Translations under genes and position numbers: made by a program
DNA from: Naegleria gruberi
Taxonomy: Eukaryota
Assembly: GCA_000004985.1 (NCBI GenBank)
Contig: GG738877.1
Length of the DNA stretch: 64,000 bases
Direction: 5' to 3' (one strand)
Notes under the pieces: generated by a model
Seen by the model: only the letters and a program-made list of their open reading frames with translations
Databases searched by the model: none
Told to the model about the DNA's origin: nothing
Part shown: positions 2,311 to 64,000 of the stretch, in pieces
How the letters are laid out: the number at the start of each line of letters is the position of its first letter
How positions within the stretch are numbered: the stretch's first letter is position 1

Positions 2311-3810
2311 ATGCAACCTGAGAAAAAGCGTCTGTGCTTTGAGGTGTCCCCGATGTGGACAATTATTTTTCTGTATCTTGTTTTAGCTGGTGTGTTTGGT
2401 GTTCTTGCGATCGGAGGCATATTTGGACCACCTGCTGTTGAAATTGTTGATGATAAACCATTGAATCTTGAACCATCAGTTTTTAAAGAAGTTTTAGATG
2501 GTGATAAACCACTTATTGGATTTTTTGATGATCTCTCTGTTTTTAATGATGAAGTGATTTTTACCATGACTTTCTATCCAAATGAAAGTTTAATTAATTC
2601 GATCGGATTTGAAGACATTTTGGAATTGGAAGTTACATTAACCGGAACAGATTCACAAGGAAAAAAACATGATCTTACACCAACAACAACAAAGATTCAC
2701 AAGAGAGAATTAATTTGTCGTCAAGGCCAACAAACTTGTCAACCTGTTACTCTCTTCCAATTACCTTATGTTGCATATCCAAAATATGAAACAAGAATTT
2801 CCATCAAAAATCAAAAGAAGCAAGCTGAATTGGATTTCTTCGTTCCAAAATTATATTTCAGTTATATGAGTATGAATGATAGTTTTGTCAAATTTGAAAT
2901 TGGTATGTATATTAATGATCAAAACACATCAACTAACTTGAATAGCTTTTAGATATGTCTTCTTATTCTTTAACATTCTTATATATGCTCTCTTTGTTGG
3001 ATTTACTAGATTCAAGCAACCATTCTCTGTATGGCACACTGAACAAAAGTGGATTGCTCTCATTTTGGGATTCTTGGTTCTCTATAATAGTAAGTAGTAT
3101 TTGATTTCAATTCTAAAACTGTTTTAGACCCTGTTTATGTCCTGCAATATATTTCTGATATCTGGCTATTCAGTTTGATTAATATTGTCTTTAGAGTTAC
3201 ATATATTTCACTTATTTTGTTCAGCTTTTTGGTATTTGCTCATTCCATTTATACAAAGGAAGAGAATCGTAGTGTATTTACATTCTATTTCCCAAAGGGT
3301 ATTTTAATTACCTCATTGTGGATTCTTACAACTGTTTCATTCATTATGGTCAGTCTTAACAAGCAATTTGATACAGTTTACTCATTTGAAGAATTGACAT
3401 ACCACAATTATATTACCGCAGCTATAATATTCTTATTAGCTCTATATATTTTACAACTTTTATATTATATTATTAGAGGTGTTGGAATGATGGGTGACCT
3501 TCCAACAAAGTATTCTTCCAAATTTAAGGTTATTTATGGTGTCACACTTTTTGTGCTCTTTATTGCTATTGCAACATCAGTTATTTCATATTCTCTTGGA
3601 AAGCTTACATCCTTCTTATTCTTGGCTAGTCATGCCTTGTTGAATTTGTGGCCATTTGCATTGGCTATCTTCTTCCTTCCTTCAAATGAAAAACACATTG
3701 GAGAAGATAGAGATGAAATCAGAATCCTCCAAGGCGCTGATGAAGATGATGATGAAGAACTCGAATTACGAAATGAGGATGAGCAAAGTGATGATCAAAA
3801 CGAAGAATGA
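2311..3810 (+). CDS. Multi-pass membrane protein with an N-terminal TM, a ~180-aa luminal domain and a polytopic TM core; tentatively Wntless/TMEM181-like. Multi-exon.
   Basis: ORFs 2311..2952 and 3175..3810 are on the same strand. Between them are clean short introns: GTATGT...TTTTAG at about 2904..2952 (about 50 nt) and GTAAGT...TTTTAG at about 3099..3138. The 3' half is a series of hydrophobic helices ending in an acidic tail (DEDDDEELELRNEDEQSDDQNEE). The family assignment rests on architecture only. Confidence 0.4.
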
Positions 3811-3876: not shown

Positions 3877-5298
3877 TTATTCTTGATTCAATAACTTTTC
3901 ATAATCTACACCCCTATCTCTATAAAATTCAAAAACAATTGGATTCATAAGACTGAAATACAATGGTGGAATGAAAGAGATTAAAATCATGGTTGAATAG
4001 CCGAATGGTAGTTTTGGAGATTTCTCATAAACTCTCAATTTGTAATATTCTCTGGTTGCATAGAAATGATGATCTGCATGGAAAACAATATTGAAATAGG
4101 CATAACTACTCATTCTAAACAAGGCATCAAAGCTATGAGTTTCATTCACTGGTTCATACTCACCATCATCCCTCAATTTTCTCTTCAATCCATAATGTTC
4201 AATATAATTCACACATTCAATAAGAATAATGGCAATCAATGCAGTAAGCAAGTAGGAACTCAAACCCAAAGTACCAAACTTGTAAAATACAAACGAGGCA
4301 AACAATACCAATGAAACAGTACTCCAGAACATTTCTGAGAAGAGTAAACTTGGAAGTGTTGTGTTAAATCTTCTTCTCCTTCTTTCTCTATGCTCAGTAT
4401 CAATGTGCCAAGCATTCATATATCCACCAATACAAGATCTCACAGCAAAATTGTAAAGATTTTCTCCAAATCTTGCAGTGGCAGCATCTTGAGGAGTTGC
4501 TGCTTTCTTATGATGAGAATAAACATGTTCCAGAGGGAAATGTAAATAACCATGGAAAATTAAAATAATCCTAGCACATAAATTCTCAATGAAGGTTCTC
4601 TTATGAAGTAAATCATGAGAAACTGCTCCTGATTGACCCAAAGCAACACCCAATGAAATTGAATGCATGAGAAATTGTTCAGCAGTCAACAAGTGAACTC
4701 TACTCAAAGAATAGAAAAACAAACAAGTTAATGAAATCGTATAAATGATTGGAACCATTCTATACAGGGTACTATAGTCTCTTGTTTGTGAGTCAATTTC
4801 CTTCTTATCATGTTCTTGATTCATATAGACGTACTCCTTTCCATTGTAAAAATAGTCAATCATTGGAATGATTACAAAACCAAATAATGGACCAGCCAGA
4901 AATGAAGTACAAATTACAGTTTCATCAGAAGGAAAATACTCTGAAATTATAACAGAAATGTTGTGATTATTAATAGTAGGAATCATTATAGTCTCTGGAA
5001 TTGTTGTAATTGTTTTATGAATGAAAGACAACGGCTGAGTAATGATATGTTTACGAAGAGGATGATCAACACTTTGAGATAAAGCCCACCACGAGAATGC
5101 ATGTAAACAAACAAGAATATGAATGTTAATCAAGTAGAGAATTGGGTTATTCCACAAGGGTGGATTTTGACTTGTAACATTTGAGTTGTTATTTACAATA
5201 TCACCACCACCAACTTGTGATAATTCATCATGATTATTTTGATGAATTTCATGAGTCAATGCACCATTCTCATTCTTCTGGGTTGTTGATATCAACAT
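3877..5298 (-). CDS. AlkB-type integral-membrane alkane 1-monooxygenase / fatty-acid-hydroxylase-superfamily di-iron enzyme
   Basis: Single 473-aa ORF, no intron. All four AlkB signature boxes are present in canonical order: HDLLHKR (HELGHK-type); EHVYSHHKKAATPQDAATARFGENLYNF (EHNRGHH...ATxxDPATSRxGESxYxF); VNYIEHYGLKRK (NYIEHYGL, the 'HYG' box); FHADHHFYATREY (LQRHSDHHA). Hydrophobic helices lie N-terminal to box 1. Confidence 0.8.
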   Translation of the reverse strand: MLISTTQKNENGALTHEIHQNNHDELSQVGGGDIVNNNSNVTSQNPPLWNNPILYLINIHILVCLHAFSWWALSQSVDHPLRKHIITQPLSFIHKTITTIPETIMIPTINNHNISVIISEYFPSDETVICTSFLAGPLFGFVIIPMIDYFYNGKEYVYMNQEHDKKEIDSQTRDYSTLYRMVPIIYTISLTCLFFYSLSRVHLLTAEQFLMHSISLGVALGQSGAVSHDLLHKRTFIENLCARIILIFHGYLHFPLEHVYSHHKKAATPQDAATARFGENLYNFAVRSCIGGYMNAWHIDTEHRERRRRRFNTTLPSLLFSEMFWSTVSLVLFASFVFYKFGTLGLSSYLLTALIAIILIECVNYIEHYGLKRKLRDDGEYEPVNETHSFDALFRMSSYAYFNIVFHADHHFYATREYYKLRVYEKSPKLPFGYSTMILISFIPPLYFSLMNPIVFEFYRDRGVDYEKLLNQE

Positions 5299-6041
5299 AT
5301 TTACAAGATCCTCTTCTTATTCCTTACTTCCTCCAGAGTGGTGGTTTGAGTGTTTGAGTGCTTGTTGTATTTTGTAAAATAACCGAAAAAAATTGAGCTT
5401 GGCAGTGAGATTGAGTGTTGATTTGATTTTTTAGTTTGATTTATCTCTAGATGGATATTTGCCAAACTTTAATCTCGATTGAGATTGCATGGCGGAAGAG
5501 ATGTCCTCTCTCTAATTGGTTCGATAACCGAGTGAATGTTGAGCATAAATATAAATAGAGTGAATACTCGTCAATTGTGCATAATGATAATAATCGATGT
5601 TATCTTTAATTTGATTGGATTGAAATGTCTTCAACACGTTTTGCATTCGAAAGGAGTTTGATTCTTTTTTACAAATTGAAAGAGACTTTAAATCAAAATA
5701 GGAAATATTAAAAGAACATTGAACATTGGGGTGCTGTTTTTATTTTTAAAGAGAGAACATATTGAATAAGGCACATCATTGTCTGTAAGGCGTTTAACAT
5801 GATTTTGAAATTCACATTCCCTCGAAGAAGATGATGATTAGTATTTGGCTCCTCTTTAGTATTGGGTGTGAACATTTGTTATTGACCTTCGAAATTAATA
5901 AGGGTCCAAAAAATTGAGTTTCCTCCTTTTTTGTGAACAAATTATTAAAGATTGCAGAGTTAGTGCAATTTCAAAGTTCACAAATGGTGCTATTTTAAAA
6001 TTGCATTCAAACTGGAAATCAATAAAAAACAAAAGAAAAAA

Positions 6042-7451
6042 ATGAAAGACTTTGAAAAAGCAGAGCTTCCCTTTGATATTGTTCCAACTTCTGATCACTT
6101 TGATTATTTAGAAGCCTTGCAAAATGAAGAATATTATAACAAGGGAATTATTTTACAAATTATCTTTGAAAAGGAGAAGGAAGAATTTCCATCAAAAGTA
6201 TTCTCCGATTTGATGAATAGATTGGTGTTGAGAACAGATAGTTCGGTTCTCACTATTTTGTGTCCATTGTTTTCTATTGAGATGCCGAAGGGTAATTCAA
6301 AGTTTACAACTGTTCGGGATTTGTTACTTGCTATCAAATATTCAATTGATGATATGCCATCTAGTATTCAAAGTCAACTCTTGCCAAAGATTGGTGTATT
6401 TTCTGAAATTGTTAACAATGTAGATTATGTTCCTGATTGGTTCAAATTGATTATTGAAGATCCACTTGGAAATTCAAGAATTCAATGTAATAGAATAGAA
6501 AACATTTCAACATTGAAGGATTGTTACGATAGTGATCCAAATGTTCATGCTGATTTCTTTACTCGTACAGAAGCTGATTGTCTTGAATTTGATTTGATTT
6601 TGGAAATTGAAGAAAGACCAAACACACTTTATGGAGATAACGCTTTAGAAAAGATTATTGAACTCATTCAAAATTCATCTAAAATTTTGGGATTGACAGG
6701 AGCAGGTATTTCTGTTGAAAGTGGAATTTCTGCCTTTAGAAACAGTGGCAATAGTCAATTGCAAAATATTTGGGAAAAGTGGAATCAAGATGAAATGACC
6801 TACCAGAATATTCTTTCTAAAAAAAAGATAAGAGACGATTACTTTGAGATGCATGCGTTCTTGAAGGAACAAATTTCCAAGGCAGAACCAAATGGCTCTC
6901 ATCACTTGTTCGCTCAACTCAAGGAGAAAGGAAAGTTGTTGAAAGTTATCACTCAAAATATTGATGGCATGCATCAAAAAGCTGGACTTTCAGATGACAA
7001 AGTTATTGAAATTCATGGCAGCTCCAGAGGAGTTGTTTGTACCAAATGTCGTACATTGGTCGAAGATCCAGAGAAGATTTACAGTCAAGTCAAGGATTGT
7101 GTCTTAGAAGGAAAATCTTTGCCAGATGAACTGGTAACATGCAAATGTGGAGGTGTTTTGAAACCAAATACAATCTCATTCGGTGAAGAATTACAAGATA
7201 GCAAATTAATTGAAGCAAGGCAACAATGTAGAGAATGTGATTTGATGATTATTATGGGAACAAGATTGTTGGTTTCACCAGTTAATCAATTACCAAAGTT
7301 GGTGGCTGCAAGAAATGTCCCAGTTGTCATTATTAACTTGGAGAGCACACCATTTGATAGAAATAGTGTTGCTGTCATGAACGGCAAGAGTGGTGAAACT
7401 TGTAATTATATTCTTCATCGTTTAACCTCTATCAACAATCAAGAACGATAG
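6042..7451 (+). CDS. Sir2-family NAD-dependent protein deacetylase (sirtuin) with ~200-aa N-terminal extension
   Basis: GAGISVESGISAFRNSG (GAGIS..GIP.FR Rossmann motif), ITQNIDGMHQKAG (TQNIDGLH), HGSS, zinc ribbon CTKC...CKCGG, ISFGEEL (FGE motif), LMIIMGTRLLVSPV (GTSL..PV). ATG at 6042 is confirmed in the sequence. Confidence 0.9.
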   Translation: MKDFEKAELPFDIVPTSDHFDYLEALQNEEYYNKGIILQIIFEKEKEEFPSKVFSDLMNRLVLRTDSSVLTILCPLFSIEMPKGNSKFTTVRDLLLAIKYSIDDMPSSIQSQLLPKIGVFSEIVNNVDYVPDWFKLIIEDPLGNSRIQCNRIENISTLKDCYDSDPNVHADFFTRTEADCLEFDLILEIEERPNTLYGDNALEKIIELIQNSSKILGLTGAGISVESGISAFRNSGNSQLQNIWEKWNQDEMTYQNILSKKKIRDDYFEMHAFLKEQISKAEPNGSHHLFAQLKEKGKLLKVITQNIDGMHQKAGLSDDKVIEIHGSSRGVVCTKCRTLVEDPEKIYSQVKDCVLEGKSLPDELVTCKCGGVLKPNTISFGEELQDSKLIEARQQCRECDLMIIMGTRLLVSPVNQLPKLVAARNVPVVIINLESTPFDRNSVAVMNGKSGETCNYILHRLTSINNQER

Positions 7452-7540: not shown

Positions 7541-10500
7541 ATGAAGAGAAAACCAACTACACAGTCATCACAAGATCAAAAGAAGAATAGACAGAAAGAA
7601 CATGAATCGGTTATTTCGAAAGGAACACCTTCTGATTTTGATGAAGAGGAAGCCAACGAAGATATTGAAGACGATGAAAATATAATGGAAACTGAAAATA
7701 TGGAAGAAGACGAATATGATGATGATGATATTGTGAATACACAACTTACACAAGGATCATTAGAAGATTTAAAAAAGTATAAACCTGTAGCACCAAAATA
7801 TGCAAACTGGTCAAGACCACACCTCAGCAAGGATTCACTCTATGTAAAAGGCACAGCATCAATTGCTTTCCAACAAATGGATGCCGATTATACATTAGCC
7901 GAACAAAAACCAGGCTATCCAGGACCTGCATCAGGCAACGTACCTATTGTTCGTTTGTATGGTGTTACTGAAGAAGGGTTCTCTGTGGCATGTCACGTCA
8001 GAGGTTATACACCTTACTTTTATATTGAACAACCAGAAAATTTCAATCCTGATCAATGTAGAAACTTTGCACAATTTTTGAATGCTAGAATGTCCGAACG
8101 AGGTATCAAGAAGGCAGGTAAAGTTGACGAATATGTTGTGAATGTTAGTATTGAAAAGAAGAAGAGTTTGATGCATTATGCATTTGATACCAAAAAATCA
8201 TTTTTAAGAATTGAAGCTAGTATCCCTCCTATGGTTCCTCACATTAGAGAATTCCTTGAAAAGGGTTTTAACGTTCCTGGTATTGGGTTTAGAAAATTCC
8301 TCACATATGAAAGTAACGTTCTGTTTGTTTTACGTTGCATGATTGATTCGAATATTTTTGGTGCTAATTGGGTAGAGCTTCCAGCAGGTACATACAAGTG
8401 GAGAAATGAAAATGATAAGACTAGTCATGCTCAAATTGAAGTTGATATTTCATATGAAGATTTAATAAGTCATGCCCCAACAGAAGAAGGCTGGCACAAG
8501 ATTGCACCTCTCAGAACTCTTTCATTTGATATTGAATGTAAAGGTAAAGATGGTCACTTTCCTCAAGCTGAATCAGATCCTGTAATTGTTATTTCCAATT
8601 ATGTTACTGTTCAAGGTAAATCAGAACCACTCATCAAGAATATTTTGTGTTTAGGAGATTGTGCACCAATAGTTGGTGTAGAAATCCATTGTTTCAAGAC
8701 TGAAAAAGAAATGTTAGAAACTTGGAGAAATTTCGTTATTGGTATCGATCCTGATATTATTACAGGTTACAACGTTATTAACTTTGACTTACCTTATTTA
8801 ATTAACAGAGCCAAAGCTTTAAAGTCTGGTTCCTTCCCATTCCTTGGTCGTATTGCTGGTAAGAGATCTCAAATGAAAAATAGTACCTTTTCTTCAAAAG
8901 CATACGGTACCAGAGAAAGTAAGGATATTAATATTGAAGGTAGAATCCAACTCGACGTTATGCAAGCAATTCAAAGAGACCACAAACTTTCCTCATACAC
9001 TTTGAACTCGGTATCAGCTCATTTCCTTGGTGATCAAAAAGAAGAAGTTCACCACTCTATTATTTCTACACTTCATGAGGGTAGTGATGAAGATAGAAGA
9101 AGATTAGCTTCATACTGTCTTAAAGATGCTTTCCTTCCAATTAGACTTTTGGAGAAATTGTTGATTATTATTAATTATATTGAAATGGCTCGTGTTACTG
9201 GCATTCCAGTTTCTTTTATTTTAAAGAGAGGTCAGCAAATTAAGGTTATTTCTCAATTGTTGAGAAAAGCTAAGAAGGAAGAATATTTAATGCCAACTAT
9301 TTCTAAAAGTGGAAAGAAGGAATCACTTGATGAAGAAGGTGAAACATCAGAAGAGACTTATGAAGGTGGTTTCGTTTTGTCACCAAAAACTGGCTATTAT
9401 GACATTCCAATCACAACTCTTGACTTTGCTTCTCTGTATCCATCCATTATGATTGCTCACAATTTATGTTATACTACCCTCTTAAAGAAAGAAGATTTGG
9501 CCAAATTGAGTGAAGATCAATATGTAAAAACTCCTAGTGGTGACTATTTTATCAAGAGAGAAGTTCAACAAGGTTTACTTCCACTTGTTTTAGAAGAACT
9601 CTTACAGGCAAGAAAACAAGCTAAAAAGGATATGGACAAGGCAACCGATCCTCTTGAAAAGGCTGTTATGAATGGTAGACAGCTTGCCTTGAAGATCAGT
9701 GCCAACTCTGTGTACGGTTTCACTGGTGCCCAAGTCGGTATGCTTCCTTGTCTTGAAATTTCACAATCTGTAACTTCTTTTGGTAGAGAAATGATTCAAC
9801 ACACAAAGGAAATGGTTGAAGAAAATTATACTATTAAGAATGGTTATGAAACTAATGCTGTTGTTATTTATGGTGACACAGACTCTGTCATGGTAAAGTT
9901 TGGTACAAAGGATATCAGGAAAGCGATGGAACTTGGTCTTCATGCTTCTCAAGAAATTTCAAAGACTTTTGTCAAACCCATCAAACTTGAATTTGAAAAA
10001 GTTTATTATCCATATTTACTTTTGTCCAAGAAGAGATATGCTGGTTTGTTGTGGACAAAACCAGAAAAGTTCGATAAGATGGACGCTAAGGGTATTGTCA
10101 CAGTCAGAAGAGACAACTGTGCCTTGGTGAGAAACCTTGTAAATACTTGCCTCCATTTAATTTTGATTAAGAGGAGTATTGAATCTGCTGTAAATTATGC
10201 CAAATCAGTAATTTCTGATCTGTTGATGAACAGAATGGATATCAGTATGCTGGTTATTACAAAAGCTCTAGTCAAGAAGAGTGATAAATACAAAGCTAAA
10301 CAATCTCACGTTGAGCTTGCAGAAAGAATGAGTAAGAGAGATCCTTTAACTGCACCTCGTGTCGGTGACAGAATTCCATATGTTATAGTTAAAGCTCACA
10401 AAGGTGCTAAAGCTTATGAAAAGAGTGAAGATCCTATCTGGGTTTTAGAAAATAGTATTCCAATCGATGCACAATATTACTTGGAACATCAAATTAAGAA

Positions 10501-10936
10501 ACCTCTCGAACAAATTTTCCAACCTATTATTGATAACACACAATCACTCTTTAGTGGTGATCACACCAGACAAATTGCAGTACCAACACCTTCCAAAGGA
10601 GGTATTATGAAGTTTGCTCAAAAGCAATTAAGATGTCTTGGATGTAAAGTTGTTCTTCCAAAGAATGGTGGTACAACAATTTGTTCTGATTGTTCTCAAA
10701 AAGGTGTAGCTCCAAAAATTTATGAATCTGCCATCAATAAGAGAAACCACTATGAAGATATTTACAGTAGAGTTTGGACTCACTGCCAAAGATGCCAAGG
10801 TAGTTTGCACTCTGATGTTCTTTGTACAAATAGAGATTGTCCAGTCTTTTATATGAGAAAGAAAGTACAAAAAGAATTGGCAGACAATCAAGAAATTCTT
10901 AACCGATTCGATGAAGAAGTTATTCATGATTTTTAA
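7541..10936 (+). CDS. POLD1: DNA polymerase delta catalytic subunit (family B polymerase)
   Basis: 1131-aa intronless ORF. Exonuclease motif FDIEC. Polymerase motif A DFASLYPSIMIAHNLCYTT, motif B KISANSVYGFTGA, motif C YGDTDSVMV. C-terminal CysA/CysB metal-binding module (CLGCKVV...CSDCS; CQRCQGS...CTNRDCPVFYMR). Acidic N-terminal tail. Confidence 0.95.
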   Translation: MKRKPTTQSSQDQKKNRQKEHESVISKGTPSDFDEEEANEDIEDDENIMETENMEEDEYDDDDIVNTQLTQGSLEDLKKYKPVAPKYANWSRPHLSKDSLYVKGTASIAFQQMDADYTLAEQKPGYPGPASGNVPIVRLYGVTEEGFSVACHVRGYTPYFYIEQPENFNPDQCRNFAQFLNARMSERGIKKAGKVDEYVVNVSIEKKKSLMHYAFDTKKSFLRIEASIPPMVPHIREFLEKGFNVPGIGFRKFLTYESNVLFVLRCMIDSNIFGANWVELPAGTYKWRNENDKTSHAQIEVDISYEDLISHAPTEEGWHKIAPLRTLSFDIECKGKDGHFPQAESDPVIVISNYVTVQGKSEPLIKNILCLGDCAPIVGVEIHCFKTEKEMLETWRNFVIGIDPDIITGYNVINFDLPYLINRAKALKSGSFPFLGRIAGKRSQMKNSTFSSKAYGTRESKDINIEGRIQLDVMQAIQRDHKLSSYTLNSVSAHFLGDQKEEVHHSIISTLHEGSDEDRRRLASYCLKDAFLPIRLLEKLLIIINYIEMARVTGIPVSFILKRGQQIKVISQLLRKAKKEEYLMPTISKSGKKESLDEEGETSEETYEGGFVLSPKTGYYDIPITTLDFASLYPSIMIAHNLCYTTLLKKEDLAKLSEDQYVKTPSGDYFIKREVQQGLLPLVLEELLQARKQAKKDMDKATDPLEKAVMNGRQLALKISANSVYGFTGAQVGMLPCLEISQSVTSFGREMIQHTKEMVEENYTIKNGYETNAVVIYGDTDSVMVKFGTKDIRKAMELGLHASQEISKTFVKPIKLEFEKVYYPYLLLSKKRYAGLLWTKPEKFDKMDAKGIVTVRRDNCALVRNLVNTCLHLILIKRSIESAVNYAKSVISDLLMNRMDISMLVITKALVKKSDKYKAKQSHVELAERMSKRDPLTAPRVGDRIPYVIVKAHKGAKAYEKSEDPIWVLENSIPIDAQYYLEHQIKKPLEQIFQPIIDNTQSLFSGDHTRQIAVPTPSKGGIMKFAQKQLRCLGCKVVLPKNGGTTICSDCSQKGVAPKIYESAINKRNHYEDIYSRVWTHCQRCQGSLHSDVLCTNRDCPVFYMRKKVQKELADNQEILNRFDEEVIHDF

Positions 10937-11201
10937 TCTCATGGTGTTGATTGTATCTCACCTAAACGAATTCAAAATAATGAATAAGACAACTACTTAG
11001 ATAAATTTCCATTTAAATTATTAAACCCATCTTACAATAGATTTCCTCAAATCCATTTCACTAACTTGTAAAATCTGATTGGTGTTGCTTTACTTTCAAT
11101 ACCTTTAGATATTTCCAATTTTATTTGGAGATGACTTAATCGTTTCGAATAAACATAATCACCATTCGGAGAGACATGTTGTTCATTATGTATAAATAAT
11201 T

Positions 11202-33109: not shown

Positions 33110-33190
33110 CGTTGAGGATGGGATTCGAACCCACGCGGATTACTCCACCAACTTAGCAGGCTGGCGCCTTAACCACTCGGCCACCTCAAC
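33110..33190 (-). tRNA. tRNA-Ser (anticodon GCU), type II with long variable arm
   Basis: Reverse complement reads GTTGAGGTGGCCGAGTGGTTAAGGCGCCAGCCTGCTAAGTTGGTGGAGTAATCCGCGTGGGTTCGAATCCCATCCTCAAC. 7-bp acceptor stem (GTTGAGG/CCTCAAC), GAGTGGTTAA D-loop, anticodon loop CUGCUAA, long variable arm, GTTCGAATC T-loop, G73 discriminator. Confidence 0.85.
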
Positions 33191-54574: not shown

Positions 54575-56398
54575 TTAATTTAATTGCATAGATACTTTTG
54601 TGAAAAAGTAATGTACCATTATTGGGATGTTATAAGTCTTGTTCAAAAGTTCAGACATGGCAGTATTTAAATTTTGATTAACATAAACTTGTGGTTGTTC
54701 TTTTTCTTGATCATATTCAACTCTTATTTCAACAAAGTCATTATCTGTAGTTGTCTTGATATAAATAATATCGCTTGGAGTTGAGTACTCTACTTCAACT
54801 CTTCTTTGATTACTATTGTCTGTATGATGTCTTGATGTTCCTGATGTATTATGTGTACAAATATTATCAAGAAGACCCTTAGAAGAATCTTGAACTTGGC
54901 TAAAACATGAAAGAAGAATATCATTAAGTAACATGTGCTTTTTCATGACAGCTAAAGTAAATCTCATTTGATCAAAATTCAAGAATGGAACTCTTCTAAT
55001 AAAAACACCAGAATTTGTTGCCAATTTTTCAGAAATATTTGAAGTAGTTGAAACAAAGTTATATACACTTGATTGTACTTTCTTTGTTGAACTTGTTGAA
55101 TAACCTGATAATAAACAATTTTGAAAAGTTTCCAATACTCTAATATCTCTATTATACTGCTCATTTACACTCATATCCCTAGTAAAGTCAGGTGGTAAAA
55201 TATTTTCAGGTTCTTGTTGTTTTTCTAAACTTGATTTTTTAAGTGATGAAATAATGGATTGAAGGAAATTCAAATTTTTAGCTGTATAAAGAGGTATTAA
55301 AGTTTGTTCAGTAAATACCATAACAGGACATGTTTGTTGTAATGCATTTCCAGCACATCCTTCAAGTGTTACAATAACTTTTCTATCTCTAAAATAATTA
55401 ATAGAAACACCTTCACATATTATTGAAACCTTGTCAGATGGAAAATTTCCTTCTCTTGTAATATAATGTTCAAATTCTCTCATTACACTTGTACTTTTTA
55501 AGAATGAACTTGTATCATTAATTTGTGTAGATCTTAAACTTGCTTTATCTGTAACAATACAATTAGGTCTACTTGCTACGAGATGATATAATTTACAAAC
55601 ATCTAATAATTTCTTTTCAAATAATTCAGGATTCCTATCTTTAACTAGAGTACTCATTAAATCTTCTGAAATTGGTTTAATTTCTTTGTGTTGTGATTCT
55701 GGATTATTTCCTTGTTTTGTTTTTTGAAATTTAATTGATTTTAATTCTTTTGTTTCAGTAAATTCAACATCCAAATTTAAAATATCACAACCCATTGAAT
55801 AACCAGTAACAAGATCTGAAGAACTAATTAAATCTGTTATTGGTAAGGCAGCATAATCTTCCTTTCCAATAAATTCATTCATTTCTTTAGCAACAGAATT
55901 TAAAATTCTTTCAATTATTTGTTGATGTTGATATTGTGTTAATACTTTTTCTGTACATTTTTGAATGGCATCCAAAAGTTCTCTTTCTTGTAATTGAATT
56001 CTATTAAATTCTTTAACTGATTTTGATTGTTGTTGAGTTTTTTCAAGAAATGCTCTTGGTTTTATAGTTAATTGTTCTTCAACTCTTTGTTTTATAATTG
56101 AAATTGCATGTTTAAGAGATTCTCTTCTTTCCAAAATATTATCACTCATATGTAATGGATGAACTAATCCATTATCATTAACTTGTTGTACTTCATTTTC
56201 CATCTTTTTAAGAATTTTTTGTATCTTGTCCCAATAATTAACATCTGCTAATTGTGAATGTTGTTGTTGTTGTGTTGGATTATTTACATCAATATTTGAT
56301 TGATCATTAATTGGTGTTGAAGTTAAAGGTGTACCAACATTACTTGTTGGTGTTGTATTTACTTCCGATAATAAATTAATTGGTGTTGAAGATGACAT
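54575..56398 (-). CDS. Hypothetical 607-aa protein, unknown function
   Basis: Long intronless ORF. S/T/N-rich N-terminus, otherwise mixed composition. No motif recognised. Confidence 0.45.
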   Translation of the reverse strand: MSSSTPINLLSEVNTTPTSNVGTPLTSTPINDQSNIDVNNPTQQQQHSQLADVNYWDKIQKILKKMENEVQQVNDNGLVHPLHMSDNILERRESLKHAISIIKQRVEEQLTIKPRAFLEKTQQQSKSVKEFNRIQLQERELLDAIQKCTEKVLTQYQHQQIIERILNSVAKEMNEFIGKEDYAALPITDLISSSDLVTGYSMGCDILNLDVEFTETKELKSIKFQKTKQGNNPESQHKEIKPISEDLMSTLVKDRNPELFEKKLLDVCKLYHLVASRPNCIVTDKASLRSTQINDTSSFLKSTSVMREFEHYITREGNFPSDKVSIICEGVSINYFRDRKVIVTLEGCAGNALQQTCPVMVFTEQTLIPLYTAKNLNFLQSIISSLKKSSLEKQQEPENILPPDFTRDMSVNEQYNRDIRVLETFQNCLLSGYSTSSTKKVQSSVYNFVSTTSNISEKLATNSGVFIRRVPFLNFDQMRFTLAVMKKHMLLNDILLSCFSQVQDSSKGLLDNICTHNTSGTSRHHTDNSNQRRVEVEYSTPSDIIYIKTTTDNDFVEIRVEYDQEKEQPQVYVNQNLNTAMSELLNKTYNIPIMVHYFFTKVSMQLN

Positions 56399-56605
56399 GA
56401 TGATCTTTTAAACACAACTCTAAGTTCTCTGTCTCTCTGATGATTGTATTTTTTTTAAAAATTAAAAATTCGGAACAAGGCTTGAAAAAATTCTCTCAAC
56501 ATTAATTCTTTTGATTCAGCCTCATTCTGCAGCATAGAGAAGGCTATTTTCTCTGAGATCCGATTATAATTTATTATATCATCATTTGTAAATTTTATAT
56601 TAACA

Positions 56606-58838
56606 ATGCCATCAAGAAAAGTAGTATTTACTTCACCTCCTAAAATACTTCAATCACCAACATCATCTTTATCTTCATTAAAACATTCATCTCCATCAAT
56701 GGATTATCATCAATTATCAATGGAACATTTTAATAATAAAGAATATGAACAATCATTGGAAAATTTAAATAAACTCTTAAAAGAAACAACCAATACAACA
56801 GAAATATTTAAAATTAAACATAATATTGCAATAGTAAAATATTTACATGAAAATCATTCGGAAGAAAAATTACTTTTAGAATTGGAAGAAATTAAACAAT
56901 CAACTAGAAAACATTCTAATCATCAATTTCCAATTTTAATTTACAATCAATCTGTATTATATTATAAAAAGGAAAAATATAACAAAGTATTAGAATTATT
57001 GGAGCCTTTATTTGAATCATTAGATTCTAATAATGAAAATTCTATTAATAATCAATTATTAAAATATGATGAATTTCTAGTTTTAAAAATATGTTTTTTA
57101 TTATTAGATATATTTATTGATAATATGAAATCAATTGAAAAATCACAAAATGTAATTAAATATATTGATAATAATTTTCAATCTATTATTCAAAGTACAA
57201 TACCATCTCTTCCACAATTAAATATAACAGAACTTTCTATAACTGAATCAAAATTTAACATTTTATTTTATAAGACAAAATTAGCAATTTTACAAAAAGA
57301 TGAAATTTCAATCATTTTAGATTTTATTCAATCTGCTAATCATGTTATTAAAAATGCAAATATTTCAAAAGAGGAAAATAATTATATTAATAGTATCATG
57401 ACAAGTAAAATTTGTCTACTCGAATGTTTTTTAACTTTAACTAGAAATAATTCTAATAATAATGAAATTTATCATAAAAATATTAAAGAATGTATTCAAT
57501 TATTAACTCATCATAAAGAATCACTATCTCCAATTGTTTATTTTAATAATTTAGGATGTATTTATTTAAAAAAAGAAAATGGAAATTCTACAATGTCACA
57601 ATTTTACTTTTCCAAAGCATCAAAATCAAATAATTCTTTTGCTTGTTATAATTTAGCTTATCAATATTTATTAAGAGAATCTGAGAAAATTAAAGAAATT
57701 ACAAATTGCCTTTGTAAAAATAATCCATTTCTTGATTGTTATGAATTATTTCATAAAGCTTCATTAACAATGTATGATAATCCTTATTTATGGATTAGAA
57801 TGGGAGAATGTATTTTATGTGAAAATCAAAGATTATTGAAAAAGGAAATTTTTGAATCATTTCAACAAATGTCAAATAATTGTTCTGGAAATCAAACAAT
57901 TCATTTACCAGTATTAACAAATTGTGGAATTAAGAAATATTCTTTACAGAAAGATATTTTAGATGTGTAAGTTTATTCTTTTATTTAATATGTGAAACCA
58001 TTTCAATATATATTCATATTAATATTATTAATATTTAATATTATTAATATTTAATATTATTATTAAATGTATTATTTCATTAAATATATAAATTACTAGA
58101 TGTGAAGAAGAATTAACTAAACAAAACAAGTATAATATTGAATTATTAAATGATAGATTTACAAGAAAGAATTTAGAAGAAATGTCATTAGAAATGGCAG
58201 AAAAATGTTTTCATAATTCTTTAATAATTTTATCTAATATTTTATCAGAATATAAAATGAAATATAATTTAAATGATAATTTTCAAACATTACAAAGTAA
58301 TAATGAAATGATTAATCAATCATTTATTAGATTACAACAAGCACTTATTAATGTAACATTAAAATTAGCATATGTTTCATTATGTTTAGATAATCCATTA
58401 ATTTCAATTACACATTGTAAAACTATACTTTCACTTTCAATTTCATATTCAAATTTAAATATATGTCCTGTACAATATACTATAATTGCACTTTCATATG
58501 CATTTGAAGCATTAACAATGACAGATCAATCAGAAAAAGTATTTCAAATAGTTACACCTCAACAATTACAAATTCTAGTTACACATTTACAACAATCATA
58601 TTCAGAAAGTGAGGGTTTATTATATCAACAAATATTACTTTTAAATTTATCAATTGTTCATTTAATTCAAGGAAATTATGAAAAATCACAACAAACTCTT
58701 CATCACATTACTCAAAATATTCATCAATTACCAAATCAAATCAAACCTTACTTTTTATGTGTACAATTATATCTTTTATTAATTGAAGGTAAATCACAAC
58801 AAGCCATTCAATTAATTTCTTCAATAAAAATTCAATAA
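56606..58838 (+). CDS. CNOT10: CCR4-NOT complex subunit 10 (TPR-like), 2 exons
   Basis: ILIYNQSVLYYKKEKYNKVLELLEPLFESLD...LVLKICFLLLDIFID (human [33 protein letters not shown]...AVCFLLVDLYIL); NPYLWIRMGECILCENQ (NPRLWLRLAECCIAANK); LNLSIVHLIQGNYEKSQQTLHHITQNIH ([29 protein letters not shown]); PYFLCVQLYLLLIEGKSQQAIQLISSIKIQ ([26 protein letters not shown]). Intron at about 57966..58099 (GTAAGT...ACTAG). Confidence 0.85.
58010..58072. repeat. AT-only tandem repeat (about 16-nt unit AATATTATTAATATTT, about 3 copies) inside the CNOT10 intron
   Basis: Direct reading: attaatattattaatatttaatattattaatatttaatattattattaaat. Confidence 0.7.
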
Positions 58839-58952
58839 TTAACATCATAATGACCTTTCAATTCACTCTCTCAACACTTCAAATTTGAATAACGAAAAAC
58901 TTTGTTTATATTATGAAATGATTGGAATTCTAATCACTTTCTATCCCATATA

Positions 58953-60140
58953 TTGTCCACTTACCCATTAACTTCCAATCACGTTCAATCTAAAAATACA
59001 AAACAAAATATTGAAAAAAACATCACCAAACATCATCAAAAGGCTTTGAAAAGGATGATGAATAATCAAAACCAACAACAACAAGGAACATTTCCATTTG
59101 ATAGTGCCATTCTATCTGATAATTCACAATATACCTATGGAGGAGAACAATCGTGTACATATATTTGTTTAACTGCTATTGAATACTTTTTAAATAATTA
59201 TTCCAAGTTTAGAATTCCGATTTCATCATCAACATCAAAAGATCTTAAAATTACAAAGAATGATATTGATTATGTATTACAATTAGGTGTTTCAAGAGAT
59301 AGAAAAGTTGGACTAACATCATGTGATGATGTTTATTCTAATAACGAATATTTTCAAAAAACACTTGAATTGAAATCAATGCACATTTCAAAATTAAGTG
59401 ATAGTCTTTCTTTTAAACAATTACTTAAAGAAATGGAATCAAAATCAATTGATACAAAATCATCAAGTGATGTAACTGCTCTAGTTTTAACTAAACCACC
59501 TGAAACTATTGCTATATTTTATGATTGTTATGGTTATTTAAATGGAAAAGAGAATGAATATTATCCATGGTTTATATTTGATTCACATCCAAGAAAATAT
59601 AGTAGAGGTGGTGGTTTTTATTTATTTAAGGATTTATCTAAAATTGAACAATATTTGAAAAAATTATTTATTGATGATTTTGATTATTATAGAAATATGT
59701 TTGATTCTTATCAAGCTAAATCTCATGTCATGTTTGAAGGTACTATTGTAACATTAAAACCTCTTTCAAATTTGAAAACTATTCAACCACCACAAACTGT
59801 AAATCAACCACAAATTGTAAATAGTCCAAGTCAACCAGTCAAACAAGAATCAAACATTCCAAATAATACTAATAATAATAGCACTCCAAAAGAATCTCAA
59901 AAACAAGTAATAGTTCAACAACAACCAGTAGATCAAAATCAATTGATTGAACAATTAATGAAAAAGATTGATCAATTAACACAAGTTAACAAACAACAAT
60001 TTGAAGAAATTCAAACACTTACCTACTTGTTAAAAGAAGAACAAGAAAATCATCAAAGAACTGCATTAGAAAATCAAAAGCTTAAAAAATCAACCAAACA
60101 ACAAGAAAATGTAATTGATAAGATTTTCTCTTCCTTTTAA
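58953..60140 (+). CDS. Hypothetical protein; N-terminal globular region with Cys...His arrangement, C-terminal Q/N-rich coiled coil
   Basis: 395-aa ORF with SCTYICLTAIEYFL (Cys) and later FIFDSHPRKYSRGGGFYLF (His), a spacing reminiscent of papain-fold peptidases/deubiquitinases. C-terminal LIEQLMKKIDQLTQVNKQQFEEIQTLTYLLKEEQ coiled coil. No firm family. Confidence 0.4.
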   Translation: MSTYPLTSNHVQSKNTKQNIEKNITKHHQKALKRMMNNQNQQQQGTFPFDSAILSDNSQYTYGGEQSCTYICLTAIEYFLNNYSKFRIPISSSTSKDLKITKNDIDYVLQLGVSRDRKVGLTSCDDVYSNNEYFQKTLELKSMHISKLSDSLSFKQLLKEMESKSIDTKSSSDVTALVLTKPPETIAIFYDCYGYLNGKENEYYPWFIFDSHPRKYSRGGGFYLFKDLSKIEQYLKKLFIDDFDYYRNMFDSYQAKSHVMFEGTIVTLKPLSNLKTIQPPQTVNQPQIVNSPSQPVKQESNIPNNTNNNSTPKESQKQVIVQQQPVDQNQLIEQLMKKIDQLTQVNKQQFEEIQTLTYLLKEEQENHQRTALENQKLKKSTKQQENVIDKIFSSF

Positions 60141-60397
60141 TGACATTCTAATTTAAAATGTACATTTCCTTGGTGATGGTGTAAATAAACAAAATAACTT
60201 CAATCCATTAATGTAGTTTGCTTGGTTACTTCAAGAGTTATTTCTCCTCCTACTCCGATTAAAGGCTTGTTCGTTCTCCTCAATTTCAAATCTAAAAAAA
60301 TAACAACAACAAAATATCATTTTGCAATCATCTATTTTACTAGGAGAGATTGCTGATTTTTGGATTAAATTATTATAAAACCTCGAATCGGATCAAT

Positions 60398-61613: not shown

Positions 61614-61678
61614 TTTATTACCTTTTTGATATAAAAGTCACATTACCATTAAATAATAATAATAATCATAATATTACT

Positions 61679-62761: not shown

Positions 62762-62930
62762 AATTCAAAAAATAAAATATTCAAACCCTTTCCATTCATA
62801 TTTTAAAAAGCTTTTAGCCTTTGATTTTGTTTTATTTTAATAATAAATTTTTGAAAGCCTTTAAAAAAAATTCATCAACATATCATATTTTAAACCAATA
62901 GCCTAAAACAATTCATCATCATCTTTAAAA

Positions 62931-63694: not shown

Positions 63695-64000
63695 ACTATT
63701 TATACAGTTTATTTTGTTTATTATTATTGAAATATTTGTTGTTGGATTGTGAACTTTTGGTAATTCTTTCATCATTACAATTTTATTTAAAATTTAAAGA
63801 AAAATTCATCACAATCGATCAGCCTAAACAATTCACACAACAATAAGAAGTGCACTAAAATAATCGGAAGATGACATCTAATCAAATTAATCATAATGAA
63901 AATATCATAAATAATAACAACATGTTATTAGAAGAATTACCTAATGAAATACTTTGTTTAATATTAGATCATTTTGAATTTAAATTTCTATTTCACAATT

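What the first reader, a model, noticed from the sequence alone, without database searches (positions are those of the whole stretch)
3877..5298. AlkB-type integral-membrane alkane hydroxylase homolog with all four diagnostic His/HYG boxes
The 473-aa intronless ORF carries the complete AlkB signature set in canonical order: HDLLHKR; EHVYSHHKKAATPQDAATARFGENLYNF; NYIEHYGL; FHADHHFYA. It also has N-terminal TM helices. AlkB alkane 1-monooxygenases are characteristically bacterial, so a full-length homolog embedded between ordinary eukaryotic genes is unusual and suggests horizontal acquisition. It shares a ~740-bp divergent promoter region with the sirtuin gene. Substrate range (alkanes, fatty alcohols or other lipids) and the required rubredoxin-type electron donor are open questions.
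Basis: partly seen in the sequence, partly recalled or inferred. Interest (0 to 1): 0.65.

Follow-up and report, generated by a model that had tools for sequence, protein, structure and literature searches.

The report
Amoeba gene for a bacterial-type AlkB oxygenase
This Naegleria gruberi gene encodes an intact copy of the membrane iron enzyme that bacteria use to oxidise alkanes; amoebae of this group have kept it and altered its substrate pocket, so it probably now acts on one of the cell's own lipids, possibly as the sterol enzyme that Naegleria appears to lack.

Summary

It is not contamination. Its neighbours are eukaryotic, its codon usage matches theirs, and its position is conserved in N. 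lovaniensis and N. fowleri. Those orthologues carry a GT-AG intron, and dN/dS is about 0.07.

Homologues also occur in Willaertia and Acrasis. They form a small clade in which every member of known origin is eukaryotic, set among hundreds of bacterial AlkBs. A bacterial origin is therefore plausible, but it is ancient and the donor is unresolved.

New here: the clade replaces substrate-pocket residues that are 90-97% conserved in the other AlkBs, and keeps only two of six rubredoxin-docking arginines. This points to a changed substrate and electron donor.

Untested lead: two papers report that Naegleria lacks an identifiable sterol C-22 desaturase. A published non-P450 C-22 desaturase family lists one N. 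gruberi member, which may be this protein.

The parts
3877..5298 (-). Complete CDS of the AlkB-like protein (473 aa + stop), identical to N. gruberi XP_002675644.1 / NAEGRDRAFT_80273 / UniProt D2VK76
5158..5298 (-). N-terminal tail, residues 1-47: poorly conserved and predicted disordered
   Evidence: pLDDT below 50 for most of it. Diverges between Naegleria species, with pN 0.35 between N. fowleri and N. lovaniensis
5080..5145 (-). TM helix 1 (residues 52-73), following a W-N-x-P motif (W49-N-N-P52) that is shared by Naegleria, Willaertia and environmental member P0286
4915..5079 (-). Naegleria-specific insert of about 55 residues between TM1 and TM2 (residues 74-128). It is absent from Willaertia and bacteria, contains a conserved N-I-S sequon, and is under purifying selection
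   Evidence: Alignment; omega 0.069 for residues 41-135; sequon at residue 113
3922..4896 (-). AlkB catalytic core (residues 135-459), which aligns to the solved FtAlkB and FtAlkBG structures
4879..4881 (-). Gly140. This is the position equivalent to Ile54 of FtAlkBG and Trp55 of P. putida AlkB, which limits substrate chain length. A small residue here predicts a long tunnel
4603..4617 (-). His box 1, HDLLH (H228, H232)
4510..4530 (-). His box 2, EHVYSHH (H258, H262, H263)
4189..4209 (-). Box 3, NYIEHYG (ligands E367 and H368)
4213..4218 (-). Codons E361-C362. At this phase-0 site the N. lovaniensis (48 nt), N. fowleri (72 nt) and environmental L008 (34 nt) orthologues carry a GT-AG intron. 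N. gruberi has none
4066..4098 (-). Y401-F-N-I404-V-F406 followed by His box 4, HADHH (H407, H410, H411). Y401, I404 and F406 replace the near-invariant L315, L318 and R320 of canonical AlkB
4126..4137 (-). HSFD, in place of the canonical AlkB HSWN. W is invariant in 359 of 359 non-clade sequences. D is present in all 13 clade members
5299..6041 (.). 743-bp divergent intergenic region shared with the sirtuin gene. The head-to-head arrangement is conserved in N. lovaniensis
6042..7451 (+). Syntenic neighbour: a sirtuin with an N-terminal ZPR1 jelly-roll domain. It anchors the locus as eukaryotic

Best explanation
The ORF is a genuine nuclear gene of Naegleria gruberi. It encodes a catalytically intact integral-membrane diiron oxygenase with the AlkB (alkane 1-monooxygenase) fold.

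Shown:
- It has six TM helices, and all nine His ligands plus the Glu ligand are present.
- It belongs to a small clade that also contains N. lovaniensis, N. fowleri, Willaertia magna, Acrasis kona and eight environmental sequences, at least one of which lies on a clearly eukaryotic contig.
- The clade sits among hundreds of bacterial AlkBs.
- The gene is under strong purifying selection.

Inferred:
- An ancestor of these heteroloboseans acquired a bacterial alkB once, before the Naegleria-Acrasis split. The gene was then domesticated: codon usage ameliorated, introns were gained, and the N-terminus and the TM1-TM2 loop were added.
- The protein sits in an endomembrane, probably the ER. It binds the long aliphatic tail of a hydrophobic substrate in a tunnel formed by TM2, TM4 and TM6. 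It uses O2 and two electrons delivered at its cytosolic face to hydroxylate or desaturate that tail.
- The whole clade has replaced pocket residues that are near-invariant in other AlkBs, and most of the arginines that dock rubredoxin AlkG. The gene is also retained in every heterolobosean genome sampled. I therefore judge modification of an endogenous lipid, with a cytochrome b5-type donor, more likely (about 0.55) than assimilation of environmental n-alkanes with a rubredoxin chain (about 0.3).
For: Identity and integrity:
- 100% identical to the N. gruberi RefSeq protein, on a 394.7-kb scaffold.
- phmmer E=2e-44 to FtAlkB.
- H137, H141, H167, H171, H172, H272, H311, H314, H315 and E271 of FtAlkBG map one-to-one onto H228, H232, H258, H262, H263, H368, H407, H410, H411 and E367.

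Eukaryotic residency:
- Neighbours are DNA polymerase delta, a sirtuin and a TMEM181/Wntless-like gene.
- GC3 is 0.27, and RSCU correlates at r=0.95 with pooled neighbours.
- The sirtuin-alkB arrangement recurs in N. lovaniensis. The downstream kinase, exportin-T, AAA ATPase and Prp18 genes are shared by N. lovaniensis and N. fowleri.
- GT-AG introns lie at the same phase-0 site in N. lovaniensis, N. fowleri and L008. Acrasis has an intron at a different site.

Selection: dN/dS is 0.07 between N. fowleri and N. lovaniensis, and 0.12-0.13 against N. gruberi.

Clade:
- Naegleria has 97% and Naegleria+Willaertia 99% bootstrap support.
- The 13-sequence clade has 70%. The five named heteroloboseans fall within a clade of at most 13 of the 374 sequences in 91 of 100 replicates.
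- The Cyanidiales sequences never join it.
- Environmental member P0194 lies on a contig with kinase, BTB, metacaspase, E2 and RhoGAP genes.

Functional shift:
- L274 becomes I, V, A or T; it is L in 335 of 359 non-clade sequences.
- L315 becomes Y in 10 of 13 clade members; it is L in 342 of 359.
- R320 becomes F, Y, L or M; it is R in 328 of 359.
- HSWN becomes HS(W/F)D.
- Every clade member departs at 4 or 5 of these five sites, whereas 268 of 361 other sequences depart at none.

Donor:
- Only R234 and R306 remain of the six AlkG-docking arginines, and R284 has become Glu.
- No rubredoxin gene lies next to the closest bacterial genes examined.
- The window has no rubredoxin or cytochrome b5 motif.
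- ER enzymes of this superfamily in eukaryotes use cytochrome b5 (PMC9485055).
Against: - No activity, expression or localisation data exist for this protein. I found no paper that names it.
- The Willaertia report of K00496 could not be traced in that paper's supplements.
- The phylogeny is neighbour-joining on Kimura-corrected distances only. The node joining the clade to any bacterial group has 20% support or less, so neither direction of transfer nor donor is demonstrated.
- AlkB-like genes in several eukaryotic supergroups leave room for an older eukaryotic origin.
- The protein is about as similar (31-40% identity, E about 1e-50 to 1e-62) to AlkBs of classical alkane degraders such as Alcanivorax, Acinetobacter, Rhodococcus and Mycobacterium as to the Bacteroidota homologues. 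Conserved alkane hydroxylation cannot be excluded.
- Gly140 fits a long-chain alkane tunnel.
- Several of the AlkG-docking arginines are also variable among bacterial AlkBs, so their loss is weak evidence about the donor.
- ER localisation is inferred only from the lack of an obvious targeting peptide and from analogy.
Confidence: 0.7

Rival explanations
1. It is a conventional alkane 1-monooxygenase. It lets the amoeba omega-hydroxylate environmental or prey-derived long-chain n-alkanes and feed them into beta-oxidation, with electrons from a rubredoxin/rubredoxin-reductase pair encoded elsewhere in the genome.
For: The AlkB fold and ligand set are complete. Identity to AlkBs of known alkane degraders is 31-40%. 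A small residue (Gly140) sits at the chain-length-limiting position. N. gruberi prefers lipids as fuel (PMC6205838). In one environmental relative an acyl-CoA synthetase-like gene lies next to the gene. Automatic annotation calls the Acrasis and Willaertia homologues alkane 1-monooxygenase.
Against: The whole clade has replaced L274, L315, R320 and the HSWN motif, all near-invariant in about 360 other AlkBs. L274 was shown to be essential in FtAlkB by an L274W substitution, whereas L315W had little effect (PMC10110569). Four of the six AlkG-docking arginines are lost. The gene is retained in every sampled heterolobosean, including the pathogen N. fowleri, under strong constraint; that pattern is unlike an accessory catabolic gene. 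No rubredoxin partner is known in Naegleria.
Confidence: 0.3
2. It is the missing non-P450 sterol C-22 desaturase of Naegleria. On this reading it is an AlkB-fold enzyme that inserts the delta-22 double bond of ergosterol using cytochrome b5, and is analogous or homologous to Tetrahymena Des22A and Des22B.
For: Two independent studies found no ERG5/CYP710 orthologue in Naegleria, although ergosterol needs C-22 desaturation (PMC6136796; PMC8296547 Additional file 4). Tetrahymena Des22A and B are FA-desaturase-superfamily enzymes with 5-6 predicted TM helices, as in AlkB and unlike the four of SCD. They are ER-localised and depend on cytochrome b5. Their OMA-derived family lists exactly one N. 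gruberi protein, NAEGR07775, together with Bacteroidota proteins. The protein here is entry P007715 in EukProt, a similar serial number. The clade has a remodelled pocket and is retained throughout the group.
Against: Homology to Des22 or to the Fusarium delta-3(E)-desaturase could not be tested, because the sequences were not obtainable. No ciliate or fungal protein appears among the named hits, so any relationship is distant. InterPro assigned Des22 to no family, whereas this protein is unmistakably AlkB. Table S2 of that paper lists 'Alk B' as a family separate from 'C22'. Equating NAEGR07775 with this protein rests only on similar serial numbers. N. gruberi also has a CYP710-like P450, XP_002678320.
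Confidence: 0.2
3. The ORF is bacterial contamination or a chimeric assembly, not an amoeba gene.
For: The closest non-heterolobosean homologues are bacterial.
Against: The window has uniform GC of about 33% around the gene. Eukaryotic genes flank it within 66 bp and 743 bp. Codon usage is identical to that of its neighbours. Orthologues lie at syntenic positions in two independently assembled Naegleria genomes, on 676-kb and 723-kb contigs, and carry spliceosomal introns. The best bacterial identity is only about 40%.
Confidence: 0.01
4. It is an ordinary vertically inherited eukaryotic fatty-acid, sphingolipid or sterol desaturase or hydroxylase (SCD, DES1, ERG3 or FA2H type) that merely shares histidine boxes with AlkB.
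For: Pfam assigns only the generic FA_desaturase domain. NCBIfam returns nothing.
Confidence: 0.02

Closest known systems
Bacterial alkane 1-monooxygenase AlkB (P. putida GPo1 AlkB; Fontimonas thermophila FtAlkB, PDB 8SBB and 8F6T)
   Different: The host is eukaryotic. There is an extra N-terminal tail of about 50 residues and a 55-residue TM1-TM2 insert. Pocket residues L274, L315 and L318 are replaced by I, Y and I; R320 by F; HSWN by HSFD. Only two of six AlkG-docking arginines are kept. No fused or adjacent rubredoxin exists.
Uncharacterised 'alkane 1-monooxygenase' homologues of Bacteroidota (Saprospiraceae, Chitinophagales, Flavobacteriaceae, Cyclobacteriaceae)
   Same: These are the best-scoring bacterial relatives (31-40% identity). 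They share the ExVNYIEHYGL context and a small residue at the Trp55 position, and they are stand-alone genes without an adjacent rubredoxin.
   Different: They keep the canonical L/L/L/R/HSWN pocket signature and lack the N-terminal additions. The tree does not resolve them as the sister group (support 20% or less).
Heterolobosean orthologues: N. lovaniensis C9374_003349, N. fowleri FDP41_008978, Willaertia magna KAL9657856, Acrasis kona 'alkane 1-monooxygenase'
   Same: Same clade (bootstrap 97, 99 and 70-91), the same altered pocket signature, and the same locus in the three Naegleria species.
   Different: The N. gruberi gene has lost, or never had, the intron before the NYxEHYG motif. The 55-residue loop is Naegleria-only. 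Acrasis and Willaertia have shorter N-termini.
Other eukaryotic AlkB-like genes: Cyanidioschyzon merolae CMM273C ('similar to alkane hydroxylase'), Cyanidiococcus, an MMETSP transcript (P0171), and the Chlamydomonas, Volvox and Tetrahymena 'Alk B' entries in Table S2 of PMC9485055
   Same: They are AlkB-family proteins encoded in eukaryotic genomes or transcriptomes.
   Different: The Cyanidiales proteins keep the canonical motifs (HSWNSSH, LQRHADHH) and never group with the heterolobosean clade (0 of 100 bootstraps). They probably have a separate origin. The green-algal and ciliate entries were not examined.
[quoted passage not shown]
   Same: These are eukaryotic membrane diiron enzymes of the FA-desaturase superfamily with 5-6 predicted TM helices and an Asn-containing third motif. 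Their published family contains one N. gruberi protein and several Bacteroidota proteins.
   Different: They are experimentally desaturases of lipid tails, not hydroxylases, and depend on cytochrome b5. Direct sequence relatedness to the protein studied here was not testable. No member appeared among the named top hits.

Membership tests
AlkB (integral-membrane alkane 1-monooxygenase, class III diiron) | Significant full-core sequence homology to experimentally characterised AlkB | tested here: met
   phmmer E=2.2e-44 (8sbb_A) and 1.6e-43 (8f6t_A) over residues 135-459; 699 representative proteins at E<1e-30
AlkB (integral-membrane alkane 1-monooxygenase, class III diiron) | Nine histidine ligands in four motifs (HxxxH, EHxxxHH, NYxEHYG, HxxHH) plus the Glu ligand | tested here: met
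   One-to-one mapping onto the FtAlkBG ligands listed in PMC10113152; invariant across 68 aligned homologues
AlkB (integral-membrane alkane 1-monooxygenase, class III diiron) | Six-TM AlkB fold, distinct from the SCD1 and Scs7p folds | tested here: met
   [not shown]
AlkB (integral-membrane alkane 1-monooxygenase, class III diiron) | Conserved substrate-vestibule residues (L274, L315, L318 in FtAlkB numbering of PMC10110569) and the LxRHSDHH and HSWN contexts | tested here: not met
   N. gruberi has I360, Y401, I404, F406 and HSFD. All 13 clade members depart at 4-5 of the five sites, whereas 268 of 361 other sequences depart at none
AlkB (integral-membrane alkane 1-monooxygenase, class III diiron) | Rubredoxin (AlkG) and rubredoxin reductase electron supply, with a basic docking surface of six Arg | tested here: inconclusive
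   Two of six Arg are retained, and R284 is replaced by Glu. These positions also vary among bacteria. The 64-kb window has no rubredoxin motif. The rest of the genome could not be searched
AlkB (integral-membrane alkane 1-monooxygenase, class III diiron) | Terminal hydroxylation of n-alkanes | not testable with these tools
   Needs an enzyme assay
Horizontally acquired bacterial gene in a eukaryote | Physically integrated in the eukaryotic chromosome and evolving as a host gene | tested here: met
   Eukaryotic flanks, conserved position, introns, host codon usage and purifying selection
Horizontally acquired bacterial gene in a eukaryote | Nested within bacterial diversity with an identified donor lineage, and absent from most eukaryotes | tested here: inconclusive
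   The clade lies among bacterial sequences, but its sister node has 20% bootstrap support or less. The best bacterial hits span several phyla at similar scores. AlkB-like genes occur patchily in other eukaryotes
[quoted passage not shown] | Sequence homology to I7M1E1, Q236U7 or A0A2H3GTI9 | not testable with these tools
   The sequences were not obtainable. The family list contains N. gruberi NAEGR07775, whose identity with this protein is unproven
[quoted passage not shown] | The host makes delta-22 sterols but lacks a CYP710/ERG5 enzyme | tested here: met
   Literature only: PMC6136796 and PMC8296547 Additional file 4
Ordinary eukaryotic FADS-like desaturases and hydroxylases (SCD, DES1, ERG3, FA2H) | Four-TM SCD or Scs7p-type fold, with best homology to those families | tested here: not met
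   [not shown]

The most novel reading that the evidence does not exclude
The heterolobosean AlkB-like protein (N. gruberi XP_002675644, N. fowleri FDP41_008978) is the long-sought non-P450 sterol C-22 desaturase that completes ergosterol synthesis in Naegleria. On this reading a bacterial alkane-hydroxylase fold was re-tooled into a cytochrome b5-dependent desaturase of the sterol side chain. Humans have no such enzyme, so it would be a parasite-specific drug target in the brain-eating amoeba.
Probability: 0.2. Interest if true: 0.85.

Novelty: new variant of a known kind. Interest (0 to 1): 0.55.

Why it matters
AlkB is studied almost entirely as the bacterial entry point for alkane degradation. 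A conserved, intron-bearing AlkB lineage under strong selection in Heterolobosea shows that the fold has been domesticated in eukaryotes. Its ligand set is intact but its substrate pocket is rebuilt, and one carrier is the lethal pathogen N. fowleri. That gives enzymologists a natural experiment on what sets AlkB specificity and choice of redox partner.

It also supplies a concrete, testable candidate for a gap that two Naegleria genome and sterol studies state explicitly: no C-22 desaturase has been found, although ergosterol is made. If that link holds, the enzyme adds a target absent from humans to the sterol pathway, which is already exploited against Naegleria through CYP51 and ERG6. If the enzyme instead hydroxylates alkanes, amoebae would join the set of hydrocarbon oxidisers in soil and water.

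Tried and rejected
- NCBIfam scan of the protein: no family at E<=0.1, so no curated equivalog name.
- Literature searches for the gene's identifiers: nothing. Searches for Naegleria with alkane, rubredoxin or AlkB HGT: no paper on this gene.
- Willaertia paper supplements: searched for K00496 and alkane, no occurrence. The reported expression could not be tied to the orthologue.
- Third homologue search, with a profile of only the C-terminal clade-specific region (A4), meant to pull out named eukaryotic relatives: it returned only short fragments. This was a dead end and used the last search.
- Foldseek against AFDB50, to rank Tetrahymena Des22 and the fungal delta-3-desaturases: library unavailable.
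- Zauner 2008 (PMC2662314): not held.
- Searches for the old Tetrahymena and C. merolae identifiers: only the JBC paper itself.
- The Rieske+PaO oxygenase next to the gene in environmental locus L008 was examined as a possible sterol C7-desaturase neighbour. It resembles the PaO/DdmC type, not demonstrably Neverland/DAF-36, so it was not used as evidence.
- Motif scan of the window for rubredoxin or cytochrome b5: none.
- Contamination and the ordinary-desaturase reading were considered and rejected (see rivals).
Full report
**1. The observation**

The window holds a 473-codon ORF on the minus strand at 3877..5298.
- HDLLHKR at residues 228-234
- EHVYSHHKKAATPQDAATARFGENLYNF at 257-284
- NYIEHYGL at 364-371
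- FHADHHFYA at 406-414

It scores 88.6 bits on Pfam FA_desaturase (E=7.6e-25). More tellingly, it gives E=2.2e-44 and 1.6e-43 against the only two solved AlkB structures, aligned over residues 135-459. Hydropathy and the predicted structure give six TM helices: 52-73, 129-150, 176-199, 206-231, 317-341 and 343-368. The divergent spacer to the sirtuin gene is 743 bp.

**2. Whose gene it is**

The protein is 100% identical to N. gruberi XP_002675644.1 (EFC42900, NAEGRDRAFT_80273, UniProt D2VK76). It is annotated only as "predicted protein" and lies on a 394.7-kb scaffold.

Contamination or chimerism is excluded on several grounds:
- The flanking ORFs are eukaryotic: a TMEM181/Wntless-like gene ends 66 bp away, followed by a ZPR1-jelly-roll-SIR2 sirtuin and the DNA polymerase delta catalytic subunit.
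- GC is uniform at about 33% around the gene.
- GC3 is 0.27, and the RSCU profile correlates with pooled neighbours at r=0.95. That is higher than any neighbour correlates with the rest.
- N. lovaniensis has the orthologue (61% identity) in the same head-to-head arrangement with the same sirtuin, on a 676-kb contig.
- N. fowleri has it too (FDP41_008978, 482 aa, on a 723-kb contig), followed by the same kinase, exportin-T, AAA-ATPase and Prp18 genes as in N. lovaniensis.

In N. lovaniensis, N. fowleri and an environmental relative (L008), the coding sequence is interrupted by a short GT-AG intron. The introns are 48, 72 and 34 nt long and sit at the same phase-0 site, just before the xVNY(I/V)EHYG motif. 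N. gruberi lacks this intron.

Nei-Gojobori dN/dS is 0.07 between N. fowleri and N. lovaniensis, and 0.12-0.13 against N. gruberi. Synonymous sites are near saturation.

**3. What family it belongs to**

An AlphaFold2 model built on 68 homologues has mean pLDDT 82 and pTM 0.79, with the core mostly above 90.
- Foldseek against the PDB finds only the two AlkB entries (E=9e-16 and 1.6e-14, TM 0.73-0.77). Nothing else is below E=0.08.

Using the ligand list in PMC10113152 and the HMMER alignment, all nine His ligands and the Glu ligand of FtAlkBG map one-to-one. They fall on H228, H232, H258, H262, H263, H368, H407, H410, H411 and E367.

The protein is therefore an AlkB-fold enzyme with an intact diiron site.

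**4. Distribution and origin**

An exhaustive HMMER scan of 1.84 billion representatives found 3114 hits, 699 of them at E<1e-30.

The closest were N. fowleri, then Willaertia magna KAL9657856 (46% identity), then an environmental heterolobosean (P0133 and P0280). A profile search added "alkane 1-monooxygenase [Acrasis kona]".

In a neighbour-joining tree of 374 sequences (347 columns, 100 bootstraps):
- Naegleria is monophyletic at 97%.
- Naegleria plus Willaertia has 99%.
- A 13-member clade has 70% support. It holds the three Naegleria species, Willaertia, Acrasis and eight unnamed environmental sequences.
- The five named heteroloboseans fall within a clade of at most 13 sequences in 91 of 100 replicates.

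One unnamed member (P0194) lies on a 27-kb contig full of eukaryotic genes: kinases, BTB, metacaspase, E2, RhoGAP and CRAL-TRIO. Another (P0136) lies on a 48%-GC contig with long spacers and secreted, possibly GPI-anchored, neighbours. Acrasis has its own intron near the 5' end.

All remaining strong hits are proteins annotated as alkane 1-monooxygenase, nearly all bacterial (a few are eukaryotic, treated in section 5, and one is from a Lokiarchaeia MAG). In a scan of GTDB species genomes the best were Saprospiraceae, Lewinellaceae, Chitinophagales and Flavobacteriaceae at 31-40% identity. Legionella, Acinetobacter, Alcanivorax, Rhodococcus and Mycobacterium scored almost the same. The node joining the eukaryotic clade to any bacterial group has 20% support or less.

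My reading is one acquisition of a bacterial alkB before the Naegleria-Acrasis divergence, with the donor unknown. This is an inference. It rests on a distance tree and needs maximum-likelihood confirmation.

**5. How unusual this is**

- The red algae Cyanidioschyzon merolae ("similar to alkane hydroxylase") and Cyanidiococcus have canonical-looking AlkBs. They never group with the heterolobosean clade (0 of 100 bootstraps).
- One hit is an MMETSP transcript.
- Table S2 of PMC9485055 lists "Alk B" entries from C. merolae, Chlamydomonas, Volvox and Tetrahymena.
- A Willaertia transcriptome and proteome paper mentions K00496, alkane 1-monooxygenase (PMC7285305).

No paper I could find discusses the Naegleria gene.

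**6. What is different about the heterolobosean proteins**

*Additions.* There is a variable, disordered N-terminal tail. TM1 is preceded by a W-N-x-P motif. In Naegleria only, there is a 55-residue TM1-TM2 insert with a conserved N-I-S sequon. That insert is as constrained (omega 0.069) as the core (omega 0.051).

*Pocket.* PMC10110569 identifies L274, L315 and L318 as highly conserved vestibule residues. L274W and L318W abolish activity, whereas L315W has little effect. Across the 359 aligned sequences outside the heterolobosean clade and the Cyanidiales:

| FtAlkB site | Other sequences | Heterolobosean clade |
|---|---|---|
| L274 | L in 335 of 359 | I, V, A or T |
| L315 | L in 342 of 359 | Y in 10 of 13 |
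| L318 | L in 349 of 359 | I in 8 of 13 |
| Arg before HxxHH | R in 328 of 359 | F, Y, L or M |
| HSWN | canonical | HSWD; HSFD or HSYD in Naegleria and Willaertia |

The W of HSWN is invariant in all 359 other sequences. Every clade member departs at 4-5 of the five sites scored, whereas 268 of all 361 non-clade sequences depart at none.

*Tunnel length.* The residue equivalent to Trp55 of P. putida AlkB and Ile54 of FtAlkBG limits chain length. Here it is Gly140, which predicts a long tunnel.

*Donor surface.* Of the six arginines that dock rubredoxin in FtAlkBG, only R234 and R306 remain. R284 is replaced by Glu380. These positions also vary among bacteria, so this is weak evidence.

*Partners.* The two closest bacterial genes whose surroundings I examined have no adjacent rubredoxin. 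The 64-kb window has neither a rubredoxin nor a cytochrome b5 motif.

**7. Mechanism**

Shown: the diiron site is intact, the fold is AlkB, and purifying selection is strong.

Inferred by homology with FtAlkB (PMC10110569, PMC10113152): a hydrophobic chain enters laterally from the bilayer between TM2, TM4 and TM6. One end is presented to the His-ligated diiron centre at the cytosolic face. Two electrons reduce the centre, O2 is activated, and a C-H bond is attacked.

Three observations point away from opportunistic alkane catabolism and towards a housekeeping reaction on an endogenous lipid:
- the coordinated replacement of pocket residues across the clade
- retention of the gene in all five heterolobosean genomes sampled
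- the eukaryotic membrane context, where enzymes of this superfamily use cytochrome b5

The outcome could be hydroxylation or desaturation. I put the endogenous-lipid reading at about 0.55 and true alkane or long-chain hydroxylation at about 0.3. N. gruberi's preference for lipid fuel (PMC6205838) fits either.

**8. The most interesting lead**

Two independent studies state that Naegleria has no recognisable ERG5/CYP710 sterol C-22 desaturase, although its end product ergosterol requires one (PMC6136796; PMC8296547 Additional file 4).

In Tetrahymena the C-22 desaturases Des22A and Des22B are not P450s. They are FA-desaturase-superfamily proteins with five or six predicted TM helices, ER-localised and dependent on cytochrome b5. 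Their only characterised relative is a fungal acylamide delta-3(E)-desaturase (PMC9485055).

The OMA-derived family used in that paper contains exactly one N. gruberi protein, NAEGR07775, together with Bacteroidota proteins. The protein studied here is number P007715 in EukProt. The close serial numbers suggest it may be the same protein, but they do not prove it.

I could not obtain the Des22 or Fusarium sequences, so homology is untested. No ciliate or fungal protein was among the named top hits, which means any relationship is distant. I give this reading about 0.2.

**9. Verdict**

The core of the interpretation, an AlkB homologue of probable bacterial ancestry in a eukaryote, is supported.

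It needs three corrections:
- The acquisition is ancient and shared across Heterolobosea.
- AlkB-like genes in eukaryotes are already annotated elsewhere.
- Neither alkane substrates nor a rubredoxin donor should be assumed.

The altered pocket signature and the possible link to the missing C-22 desaturase make the gene worth an experiment.

Noticed in passing
window 56000-64000: GC drops to 22-26%, against about 33% in the rest of the window. The stretch still carries a run of same-strand ORFs with ordinary eukaryotic domains: an NPC1 N-terminal domain split over 60350-61613, RWD at 62931-63332, and DFRP_C at 63374-63694. The reason for the compositional shift is unexplained.
   Followed up: partly
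window 6042-7451 (+); also L001 7976-9394 and L008 1-741: The sirtuin next to the alkB-like gene carries an N-terminal ZPR1 jelly-roll domain (PF22794) fused to SIR2. This architecture is conserved in N. lovaniensis and in an environmental relative.
   Followed up: no
L008 777-2295 (-): In an environmental Naegleria relative, a Rieske [2Fe-2S] + PaO-domain oxygenase, split by an intron or frameshift, sits between the sirtuin and the alkB-like gene. It resembles PaO/DdmC-type oxygenases. Whether it relates to the Rieske sterol C7-desaturase reported in Naegleria was not resolved.
   Followed up: partly
L009 8119-9735 (-), next to 10001-11083 (+): On a eukaryotic environmental contig, an acyl-CoA-synthetase-like (AMP-binding) gene is transcribed divergently from the alkB-like gene P0194. 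This may hint at a fatty-chain substrate, or it may be coincidence.
   Followed up: no
window 2311-2952 and 3175-3810 (+): Two adjacent ORFs carry a TMEM181 GOLD domain and a Wntless-like TM domain. They are probably one gene with an intron. Its stop codon is only 66 bp from the alkB stop, in convergent orientation.
   Followed up: no
window 33110-33190 (-): A single tRNA-Ser(GCT) gene.
   Followed up: no
[not shown]
   Followed up: no
L006 / L007 (Logan SRR32315873, SRR32315890): P0136 and its 68%-identical relative P0286 are clade members from an unidentified organism with 48% GC. Their neighbours are secreted proteins that look GPI-anchored. P0286 shares the W-N-H-P TM1 motif with Naegleria, so further unsampled lineages carry this gene.
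   Followed up: partly
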